Shown here: one piece after another, positions 36,478 to 39,203 of the stretch
Layout: each line of letters begins with the position of its first letter
Numbering within the stretch: position 1 is the first letter of the stretch
Position numbers and translations under genes: made by a program
From: Eledone cirrhosa
Lineage: Eukaryota
Assembly: GCA_964016885.1 (NCBI GenBank)
Contig: OZ024750.1
Location: 48,236,001 to 48,300,000 of the forward strand
DNA length: 64,000 nt
Direction of reading: 5' to 3'
The notes under the pieces: generated by a model
The model's input: the letters and a program-made list of their open reading frames with translations, nothing else
Databases searched by the model: none
Told to the model about the DNA's origin: nothing

Positions 36478-36515
36478 CCTTTACCGGTTTCGCAGTTCTT
36501 CTGCTTTTCAAAAGG
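36478..36515 (-). ncRNA. U3:A8-variant minimal HHR
   Basis: Minus: CCTT-TTGAAAA-GCAG aagaa CTGC-GAAA-CCGG-TA-AAGG; stems I and II pair fully and stem III ACCGGT is palindromic. Confidence 0.75.
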
Positions 36516-37356
36516 TGAGTTGAGATGGAGGGTCTGTGGTTTTTCTCACATATATATATATATATACAGCTATAGCATATATTTTTAGCTGATACGATAC
36601 AACTTTGGACATACATCATGTATATATATATATATATATATATCATGATAAATTACGTAGCCATAGACTCTCTGTTTTATTGGTTTGTCCGTGTATTATT
36701 GATGACACACTGTCTCACCTTAGTGTGTTAACTTTTCATCATATTGTATTTTATATAAATATATAAATATATATATATATATATATATATATATATATAT
36801 ATATATATATATATATATATATATATATATATATATACATATACATATATATATACATATATATATATATACATATATATATATATATATATATATATAT
36901 ACATATATATATATATGTATGTATATATATATATATATATATGTATATATATATATATATATATGTATATATATGTATATATATATATATATATATATAT
37001 ATATATAAATATATATGTATATATATATATATATATATATATATATGTATATATATGTATATATATATATATATATATATGTATATATATATATATAAAT
37101 ATATATGTATATATATATATATAAATATATATGTATATATATACATATATATATATATATGTATATATATATATATATATATATATACATATATATATAT
37201 ATATATATATATATATATATATATATATATATATATATATATATATATATAAATATATATGTGTATATATTTATATATATATATATATATATATAAATAT
37301 ATATGTGTATATATTTAAGTATATATATATATATGTATTTATATATATATGTGTGT

Positions 37357-37514
37357 AGAAGTTATATTTAAATTGTTGGGATACAAGAAGCAAATATTTT
37401 TATAACTTATATAAAGCACTCAACAAATTATTGGCGTAACGATACGATATATTAACAAATGGAAACTATATTTATGGTTTTATAAATATAGTTTCCATTT
37501 GTTAATATATCGTA
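37357..37514 (-). repeat. Short fold-back copy of the 59587 family (hairpin 37444-37514 plus tail)
   Basis: Shares ACAAATGGAAACTATATTTAT arms and the tail sequence with 59587-60069. Confidence 0.8.
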
Positions 37515-38509
37515 TATATATATATATATATACGATATATATATATATATCGTATATATATATATATGTCGTATATATATATATATATATATGTCTCACC
37601 TTAGTGTGTTAACTTTTCATCATATTGTATTTTATATAAATATATATATATATATATATATATATATATATGTATATATATATGTATATATATATATATA
37701 TACATATATATATATATATATATATATATATATATATATATATATATATATATGTATATATATATATATACATATATATATATATATATATATATATATA
37801 TATACAGGCATAGCATGTATAATTCGCTGATACGATACAACTTTGGGAATGTATTATGTATATATATATATTCAGGTATACCATATACAATTCGCTGATA
37901 CGATACAAATTCGGAAATACATTCTGCATATATATAATTATTTTTTTTTAAATATACATATGTATATATATATATATACACGCCATATATAATTCGCTGA
38001 CACGATACAACTTTGGAAATATATCATGTATATATATATATATATATACAGGCATAGCGTATATAACTCGCTGATACGAAACAACTTTGGAAATATATCA
38101 TGTACATATATATATATATATATATATATATATATATATATATAGTCATAGCATATATAATTCGCTGATACGATACAACTTTGGAAATATATCATGTATA
38201 TATATCTATATATAAATATATATATATTTATAATGTATAAAAAACAACAATACAATATAATTACCTCATTACCAGAGGTTTCCGGAATAAGGCGAATACG
38301 AGAGAAACGTCTTCATTCGTTCGTAGGACGAGGCAACTGGTACTTACATAGATCACTCCCATGACTTTTTCTGTTTTCAACAGAAACTTCAATACATATA
38401 TATATATATATATATATATATATATATATATATATATATATATAGAGAGAGAGAGAGAGAGAGAGAGAGAGAGAGAGAGAGAGAGAGAGAGAGAGAGAGA
38501 GAGAGAGAG

Positions 38510-39203
38510 ATGAAATCAAAAATGCAACTGTAGTCTTAGTTTTTAAAAATATATATATTTATTTGGTTCCTTTACCGGTTTCGCAGGTCTTCTGCTTTTC
38601 AAAAGTAGAGTTGAGAAGAAGGGTCTGTGGTGTTTCTCACATCTGATTGGTCTCTGAATGTTACTTGTTTTATATGGAAAAGGTGGCTCGAAATGCCATG
38701 TTTTTTCGAGAAGTAATTTTATTGGTTATAACCAATCAAATTACGTTTATAAAAAAAAGCCTTCGTGAGACCCCCTTTTTTTTAAGTAAAAAGAAATTCA
38801 AATACTCATATATGAAAAGAACCACCTATGACCCCCCTCTCCCCCCCCCGCTTGTTTGAAGAACTTTGTAACGCGAACTGGCGCGAAATTTATTATAATT
38901 TATGACCAACCAATTAAATTACTTCTCGAGAAACATGACATTTAGAGCCACTTTTTCCATATATAACAAGTAACATTCAGAGACCAACCAGATGTGAGAA
39001 AAACCACAGTCCCTCCATCTCAACTCTACATTTGAAAAGCAGAAGAACTGCGAAACCGGTAAAGGAACAAAATACATATATATATATTTTAAAAACTAAG
39101 ACTCCAGTTGCATTTTCGATTTCATCTTTTTTATTTATACTTTCACTCGTGTAGGACACCTCGGTTAATTTTTTATTTTGTAAAAAAAACCTCACTTTCT
39201 AAT
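38510..39203. mobile_element. Fold-back element with ~220-bp arms, a U3:A8 HHR on each strand (38569-38606 minus; 39028-39065 plus) and a ~75-nt tail
   Basis: 38510-38731 is the reverse complement of ~38900-39126. Confidence 0.85.

What the first reader, a model, noticed from the sequence alone, without database searches (positions are those of the whole stretch)
36478..39065. Compensated U3:A8 hammerhead core (UUGAAAA) in three families
Three copies of one family (36478, 38569, 39028), both pseudo-LTRs of the minus-strand PLE (32447, 35694) and 2964 have TTGAAAA in place of CTGANGA. Established: positions 3 and 8 form a Watson-Crick pair in the active hammerhead and rare U3:A8 variants exist. 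The double change with retained stems implies selection for catalysis, and CUGANGA-based scans would miss it.
Basis: partly seen in the sequence, partly recalled or inferred. Interest (0 to 1): 0.7.

Follow-up and report, generated by a model that had tools for sequence, protein, structure and literature searches.

The report
Known U-A hammerhead variant in Penelope repeats
Several jumping-gene families in this animal genome carry a small hammerhead RNA motif, predicted to cut itself, with a U-A pair in place of the usual C-G core pair; the swap is real and genome-wide but already published for this kind of element.

Summary
The TTGAAAA cores are real. All six sites lie in the 3' pseudo-LTRs of Penelope-like retrotransposons (PLEs) and have the layout of minimal type I hammerheads. 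Genome-wide, one fixed pattern gives U3:A8 24,300, C3:G8 13,543, U3:G8 271 and C3:A8 302 matches. Two sister elements (RT 69-70% identical) differ by the full double swap, with 0 mismatched among the first 100 listed of 1,256 matches. The variant is not new: Cervera & de la Pena 2014 report U3-A8 in Schistosoma PLE hammerheads (about 1,300 hits, the same UUGAAAA core), and Perreault 2011 report it in nature. Corrections: the 2964 family is a relative of the 36478 family; only the 36478 copy keeps all stems; one pseudo-LTR copy has lost G12. Cleavage is untested, and one published mutant scan found only the G3:C8 swap active. The one surprise is the 2964 family: 10,497 matches, an uninterrupted RT-endonuclease frame in one copy, and A13 replaced by C in 98 of the first 100 listed. 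The scan noted U3-A8 cores before in other pieces of this genome.

The parts
36478..36515 (-). Family A minimal type I hammerhead motif, U3:A8 core, all stems kept (stem I 4 bp, stem II 4 bp, palindromic ACCGGU stem III); predicted cut after A17 at 36482
   Evidence: the predicted homodimer forms stems I, II and an intermolecular stem III
36406..36549 (-). 5'-truncated 3' end (pseudo-LTR piece) of a family A Penelope-like element, between TA microsatellites
   Evidence: 88.9% to 38500-38640; in longer copies elsewhere the endonuclease lies about 1.0 kb and the RT about 1.9 kb upstream
38569..38606 (-). Family A hammerhead motif, U3:A8, stem I 3 bp; left arm of an inverted pair
39028..39065 (+). 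Family A hammerhead motif, U3:A8, stem I broken (A.A at second pair); right arm of the inverted pair
38500..39132 (.). One family A insertion: two 5'-truncated 3' ends in inverted arrangement
   Evidence: 38511-38727 against 39124-38908, 91.3%
32405..35872 (-). Decayed Penelope-like element (family B) with Hydra-clade motifs; RT then GIY-YIG-type endonuclease broken by stops and frameshifts; pseudo-LTRs 32405-32626 and 35652-35872, 86.5% identical
32454..32554 (-). Family B hammerhead motif, U3:A8, 74-nt stem II region opening with U.U; predicted cut at 32458
35701..35800 (-). Family B hammerhead motif, U3:A8 but G12 replaced by A and stem III mismatched; likely dead
2965..3003 (-). Family C hammerhead motif, U3:A8 with A13C (GCAA), the family-wide state; inside an inverted repeat 2839-3161
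39311..39349 (-).
   Evidence: 927-aa open frame upstream of a copy in L246

Best explanation
The motifs are minimal type I hammerhead sequences in the 3' pseudo-LTRs of Penelope-like retrotransposons, with U3 and A8 replacing C3 and G8 together; the pair is likely kept by selection on the replicating master elements, whose RNA would cut itself slowly as a dimer through the palindromic stem III. Shown: position in the elements, layout, covariation of 3 and 8. Inferred: two motifs, from tandem pseudo-LTRs or two RNAs, pair through ACCGGU, U3 pairs with A8 to place residue 8 in the active site, and the RNA is cut after GUA to free unit-length element RNA. The window copies are truncated or decayed insertions, not themselves under selection; most could not cleave.
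For: One pattern, whole genome: U:A 24,300 (reversed control 2,990), C:G 13,543 (195), U:G 271 (216), C:A 302 (134); mismatches are 1.5% of 38,416 matches. Families scored from fetched loci: 8 with U:A majority, 6 with C:G majority, 1 undecided (1:1), none with a mismatched majority. Sisters G1 (C:G) and G2 (U:A): 31 and 69 of the first 100 of 1,256 matches, none mismatched, while position 7 varies in both; RT 69-70% identical; stem I covaries too. Across families A, C, H and E the core and stem III are the invariant island in diverged flanks and stem II covaries. Endonuclease and RT lie upstream on the same strand. RNAfold's homodimer of the 36478 copy is the double-hammerhead fold, -22.5 against -7.5 kcal/mol for the monomer. 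[quoted passage not shown]
Against: No cleavage or expression data here. Family C, 10,497 matches, carries A13C in 98 of the first 100 listed, and its monomer folds into a hairpin that buries the core, so at least one successful family may not need a working ribozyme. In a type III hammerhead, all single and double mutants of the CUGA region other than C3G:G8C had low activity (PMC9901934 section 7), so U:A rescue depends on context. Stem I is weak in families A, C, H and E (2-4 pairs). The counts are copies, not events; independent swaps number about 2-3, on a 10-row tree whose G1+G2 fork has 90/93 support only. The generic pattern needs G10.1 and C11.1, so it omits families B, C and the common C:G family T; it does not show that U:A is the majority in the genome. 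A U3.G8 example is listed for a Saccoglossus PLE.
Confidence: 0.7

Rival explanations
1. The U3:A8 hammerheads of the family A/C/H/E lineage are catalytically dead or dispensable relics, carried along by successful elements; the swap was selected long ago and the motif now rides along or serves a non-catalytic role.
For: A13C is fixed in family C, which still has an uninterrupted 739-aa RT + GIY-YIG frame in one copy and no second hammerhead candidate with stems seen in the 1.5 kb scanned at one 3' end. Stems I are weak. Naiad PLEs spread without canonical hammerheads (PMC8557442 passages). U:A gave no rescue in one mutant scan.
Against: Core and stem III stay invariant and stem II covaries across A, H and E while RTs are only 62-64% identical and flanks have diverged. 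G1/G2 show a clean double swap.
Confidence: 0.22
2. AT-biased mutation turned C3 to U and G8 to A independently in a 35% GC genome, and copying of a few masters froze the result without selection on the pair.
For: Both changes are transitions towards AT; copy numbers come from few masters.
Against: Independent drift would leave families with only one change; none of the 15 scored has a mismatched majority, and G5, G12 and the G10.1-C11.1 pair stay G/C in the same motifs.
Confidence: 0.05
3. TTTGAA is kept as a DNA promoter element of the pseudo-LTR (it equals the CHR cell-cycle element, recalled from memory), not as RNA.
For: Families A and C have an E2F-like GGCGCGAAA / GGCGCAAA and CCAAT 120-170 bases upstream (motif names recalled).
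Against: Those motifs were not found upstream of the H, E, B, D or G1 copies checked; several U:A families read CTTGAG or TTGAT; it does not explain A8, the stems or GAAA.
Confidence: 0.03

Closest known systems
Minimal hammerheads (min-HHR) of metazoan Penelope-like elements, U3-A8 variant of Schistosoma mansoni Cercyon elements (Cervera & de la Pena 2014, PMC4209133; parts 1-2 of 4 and supplement 2 part 2 read)
   Same: Type I, in PLE pseudo-LTRs, palindromic short stem III, opposite-strand pairs 100-700 bp apart, U3-A8 covariation; S. mansoni(4) has the core UUGAAAA and its S. japonicum look-alike has CUGAAGA.
   Different: Another host; at least 24,300 + 10,497 matches against about 1,300; found in two PLE lineages; family A has no extra base after A9 and a 2-bp stem III; family B has a 74-nt stem II; family C has A13C.
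Natural core variants of Perreault et al. 2011 (PMC3088659; section 8 and passages read)
   Same: C3-G8 covarying to U3-A8 in several natural hammerheads; U10.1-U11.1 opening of stem II, as in family B.
   Different: A13C is not among the variants named in the text read (the figures are not held).
Hydra clade of C-terminal EN+ PLEs (Craig et al. 2021, PMC8557442; section 11, passages, supplement part 2 read)
   Same: RWK motif, CxCX5C linker, TA insertion context and a 3' hammerhead in families B, D, G, J.
   Different: All 26 Hydra rows of their file S2 have C3:G8; here B, D and G2 have U3:A8.
Neptune/Nematis-type EN+ PLEs (CX2-5CxxC linker; same paper)
   Same: Families A, C, H: DKG (seen in H), CX4CX2C linker, RT then GIY-YIG.
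   Different: Not placed against reference elements, so Neptune and Nematis are not told apart.
Animal non-LTR retrozymes (bioRxiv 10.64898/2026.07.22.740005, part 1 of 5 read; PMC7229834 passages)
   Same: Type I hammerheads related to PLE pseudo-LTRs; tandem arrays of 316 and about 466 bp with such motifs occur elsewhere in this genome.
   Different: The window's motifs are ends of autonomous PLE families, not tandem non-coding units.

Membership tests
Type I hammerhead ribozyme | Core C3 U4 G5 A6 N7 G8 A9 / G12 A13 A14 A15.1 / U16.1 H17, with a Watson-Crick 3:8 pair | tested here: met
   Families A, B (majority) and D (majority): all positions kept with U3:A8.
Type I hammerhead ribozyme | Same core in family C (2964) and in the copy at 35701-35800 | tested here: not met
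   A13C in 98 of the first 100 of 10,497 family C matches; G12A in the 35701 copy.
Type I hammerhead ribozyme | Three stems around the core, stem I open-ended | tested here: met
   36478 copy: stems I and II in the monomer, stem III in the dimer. Only partly kept in the other window copies.
Type I hammerhead ribozyme | Self-cleavage 3' of H17 | not testable with these tools
   No assay; no RNA reads available.
Type I hammerhead ribozyme | Match to an Rfam hammerhead model | tested here: not met
   No hammerhead among matches up to E 10 at 36440-36550, 38520-39180, 32410-32620, nor among the 150 listed of 200 for the whole window, where the C3:G8 motifs were not listed either.
PLE minimal hammerhead (Cervera & de la Pena 2014) | Located in the pseudo-LTR at the 3' end of a PLE | tested here: met
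   Endonuclease 0.3-1.2 kb and RT 1.7-2.0 kb upstream on the same strand for A, B, C, D, H.
PLE minimal hammerhead (Cervera & de la Pena 2014) | Palindromic, unstable stem III allowing a dimer | tested here: met
   ACCGGU (A, C), ACGUACGU (D), ACGGUCGU with two G-U (B): predicted duplexes -8.3, -9.8, -5.8 kcal/mol.
Penelope-like element, EN+ | Single frame with RT and C-terminal GIY-YIG endonuclease, pseudo-LTRs, inverted truncated copies | tested here: met
   L301 739 aa: RVT_1 E 4e-7 and GIY-YIG E 1.8e-6; pseudo-LTRs and inverted pairs in the window. Pfam found nothing in the three window fragments of family B, in L246 or in L254; these rest on motifs and tblastn.
Hydra clade of PLEs | RWK, DKT, CxCX5C linker, no CCHH, TA targets, monophyly with reference Hydra elements | tested here: inconclusive
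   RWK and CxCX5C seen in B and D; DKT seen in one D copy, EKT in the window copy of B. No tree with reference elements was built; CCHH absence judged by eye.

The most novel reading that the evidence does not exclude
Family C (the 2964 motif) is an autonomous Penelope-like family that reached more than 10,000 copies with a doubly variant hammerhead core, U3:A8 plus A13C. Either this is a new tolerated core variant, or the ribozyme is dead and hammerhead cleavage is dispensable for endonuclease-bearing PLEs. With family A (A13 kept, RT 62% identical) as a natural control, the open question of what PLE hammerheads are for becomes directly testable.
Probability: 0.35. Interest if true: 0.5.

Novelty: new member of a known kind. 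Interest (0 to 1): 0.22.

Why it matters
As found, it adds a large data set to a known point: C3-G8 can be replaced by U3-A8 in PLE hammerheads, and CUGANGA-only scans undercount them (here by at least about 35,000 motifs in two searches). Sister elements with the clean double swap are natural material for testing whether PLE hammerheads are under selection for cleavage. The fixed A13C family matters more: if it does not cleave, a highly successful PLE does without the ribozyme, which bears on a question left open in Craig et al. 2021.

Tried and rejected
Rfam scans: no hammerhead listed; whole-window output was filled by microRNA models matching TA repeats. Sequencing runs: no RNA holder listed; nothing was laid. 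A suspected family with an excess of U3:G8 (family E, about 30 of the 100 rows by eye): in a search open at both positions, the first 100 of 2,836 E+H matches were 97 U:A, 2 U:G, 1 C:A, so it reads as an older U:A family decaying, though a small U.G subfamily is not excluded. My first label 'Neptune' for the window element at 32405-35872 was dropped for Hydra-like. The position-13 count returned nothing through a faulty pattern and was replaced. The probability 5.5e-5 treats families as independent draws, which they are not; not used. Papers not held and so not seen: Lunse et al. 2017 (known only from the review PMC6765202, passages), Przybilski & Hammann 2007, Nelson & Uhlenbeck 2008, Martick & Scott 2006. 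Any of them, and file 1 of the Cervera supplement (not searchable), may hold data on U3:A8 rates or A13 variants. Searches for 'hammerhead' + 'A13C' (one irrelevant hit), + 'C3-G8' + 'double mutant' (none), + 'G8-C3' + 'compensatory' (none) found nothing relevant; this library lacks most subscription papers. PMC7151607 and PMC11014351 (passages) added nothing.

Full report
Setting. The window is G000:C10:48236001-48300000 of a 3.0-Gb animal genome rich in TA microsatellites. Family letters below are my own labels.

Observation. A structure scan and direct reading place TTGAAAA at core positions 3-9 of hammerhead-like motifs at all six sites named. Family A: 36478-36515(-), 38569-38606(-), 39028-39065(+). 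Family B: 32454-32554(-), 35701-35800(-). Family C: 2965-3003(-). The 38569 copy has three pairs, the 39028 copy an A.A mismatch at the second pair, and these two are the arms of one inverted insertion on opposite strands. The B motif has a 74-nt stem II region opening with U.U; its second copy has lost G12. The C motif reads GCAA for GAAA. A fourth family, D, at 39311-39349(-), was missed: the window copy is U3:G8, but the 38 other rows of its alignment are U3:A8 (40 rows, 2 being the window copy). The window also holds C3:G8 motifs, for example at 19038, 19557, 27552, 31337, 59688, 59880.

What the repeats are. Upstream of longer copies, on the same strand, lie endonuclease and RT sequences of Penelope-like elements. 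Families A, C and H have a CX4CX2C linker (Neptune/Nematis type by the description in PMC8557442, passages); one C copy has an uninterrupted 739-aa frame with RVT_1 and GIY-YIG matches. Families B, D, G1, G2 and J form a second lineage with RWK and CxCX5C motifs, as described for the Hydra clade (section 11); one D copy has a 927-aa open frame, without a Pfam match. The element at 32405-35872 is a decayed B copy between two 86.5% identical pseudo-LTRs.

One pattern (N3-TGA-N-N8-A-G, 7-25 nt, C-GAAAC, 2-4 nt, GTH) was counted for four combinations: U:A 24,300 (reversed control 2,990), C:G 13,543 (195), U:G 271 (216), C:A 302 (134). The other 12 combinations were not counted. Mismatches are 0.7% and 0.8% of the total, and the listed ones are mostly scattered copies of U:A or C:G families, as decay after insertion would give. 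The pattern needs G10.1 and C11.1 and so omits families B, C and T. Searches left open at 3 and 8: family A, 11,626 matches, 99 of the first 100 U:A and 1 G:A; E+H, 2,836 matches, 97 U:A, 2 U:G, 1 C:A of the first 100; G, 1,256 matches, 69 U:A, 31 C:G, 0 mismatched of the first 100 (counted by eye); C, 10,497 matches, 100 of the first 100 U:A. The last three allowed only C/T at 3 and A/G at 8. In fetched loci, leaving out the central hits of the two mismatch searches, 8 families have a U:A majority (A, B, C, D, E, F, G2, H), 6 a C:G majority (G1, J, K, M, P, T), D2 is 1:1, and none has a mismatched majority; many loci were fetched by likeness to a window copy, which biases towards that copy's state.

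Is the pair selected? Copies of a young family say little. The useful evidence is between families. G1 (C:G) and G2 (U:A) have homologous motifs, covarying stem I and RTs 69-70% identical; they group with J (C:G) at 84/98 in the RT tree, and G1+G2 group at 90/93 in the RT+endonuclease tree (10 rows, midpoint root, no reference elements; the D2 row came from a C:A copy). All 26 Hydra rows in file S2 of PMC8557442 are C3:G8. So at least one and probably two or three complete swaps occurred in this genome's elements. Across A, C, H and E the core and stem III are the invariant block among diverged flanks.

Mechanism. Stem III is a short palindrome that cannot close in a monomer. RNAfold's homodimer of the 36478 copy gives the double-hammerhead fold (-22.5 kcal/mol; monomer -7.5); dimers of the 38569 and 39028 copies lose stem I, and the C monomer folds into a hairpin over the core. 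I infer slow self-cleavage after GUA in dimers formed by tandem pseudo-LTRs, processing the element's RNA, as proposed in PMC4209133, where activity was low even for dimers. Cleavage itself is not shown.

Against. Family C has A13C in 98 of the first 100 listed matches. A13 is part of the consensus core used in PMC3088659; that changes there lower activity strongly is recalled, not read. PMC9901934 (section 7) found that only C3G:G8C rescued the CUGA region of a type III hammerhead, whereas PMC3088659 (section 8) states that covariants at 3 and 8 were shown active in vitro; I could not read the primary paper.

Prior work. PMC4209133 reports 'U3-A8 instead of C3-G8' in S. mansoni Cercyon PLEs and about 1,300 hits with a descriptor for it; its figure S3 lists UUGAAAAA in a PLE-associated motif, a C3:G8 look-alike in S. 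japonicum and a U3.G8 case in Saccoglossus. PMC3088659 reports natural U3-A8 and U10.1-U11.1. Two earlier notes of this scan report U3-A8 cores in other pieces of this genome; look-ups for the A13C family found no note.

Verdict. Real and genome-wide, the covariation test is passed, catalysis is likely but untested, and the variant is known: new members of a known kind, interest 0.22. The lead worth keeping is family C.

Noticed in passing
window 2965-3003 (-); L301:3647-5863: Family C: 10,497 pattern matches, A13C in 98 of the first 100 listed, one copy with an uninterrupted 739-aa RT + GIY-YIG frame; possibly a very successful element with a dead or newly variant ribozyme.
   Followed up: partly
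L261-L290, L291, L294, L295: Sister Hydra-like families G1 (C3:G8) and G2 (U3:A8) with homologous hammerheads and covarying stem I; a natural double swap.
   Followed up: yes
window 39311-39349 (-): Family D hammerhead; the window copy has U3:G8, the family U3:A8; a 927-aa open frame lies upstream of a copy in L246.
   Followed up: yes
window 27552(+), 31337(+), 59688(-), 59880(+): C3:G8 hammerheads of an abundant, varied family (T) with an 8-bp AU-rich stem I and TATATA/TATGTA stem III; its parent element was not sought.
   Followed up: no
window 19038(+), 19557(+), 40675(+), 18642(+), 4094(+): Further C3:G8 hammerhead-like motifs; 19038 and 19557 lie in a direct repeat about 520 bases apart (retrozyme-like); 18642 and 4094 look decayed.
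   Followed up: no
L252 (G000:C1:6519946-6521556); G000:C1:5738326-5752334: Tandem arrays with hammerheads: a 316-bp unit with U3:A8 and broken stem I, and a 466-bp unit with C3:G8; retrozyme-like.
   Followed up: no
L019, L143; window about 38860-38920: Families A and C carry an E2F-like GGCGC(G)AAA and CCAAT-like motif 120-170 bases upstream of a TTTGAA; resembles a cell-cycle promoter set (motif names recalled); not found in the H, E, B, D, G1 copies checked.
   Followed up: partly
window 11714-15139 (-): 1141-aa open frame with RVT_1 (E 5.8e-23) and weak zf-RVT: a LINE-type element, with a 620-base direct repeat 10910-11529 / 11638-12258 at its end.
   Followed up: no
L308, + strand near 3357: One copy of the C3:G8 family P reads U3:A8, with a degenerate stem I (1 of 21 contexts); decay or a small subfamily.
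   Followed up: partly
window 36234-36373, 37805-38198, 39424-39567: A 50-base repeat set between TA microsatellites, many copies, not identified.
   Followed up: no
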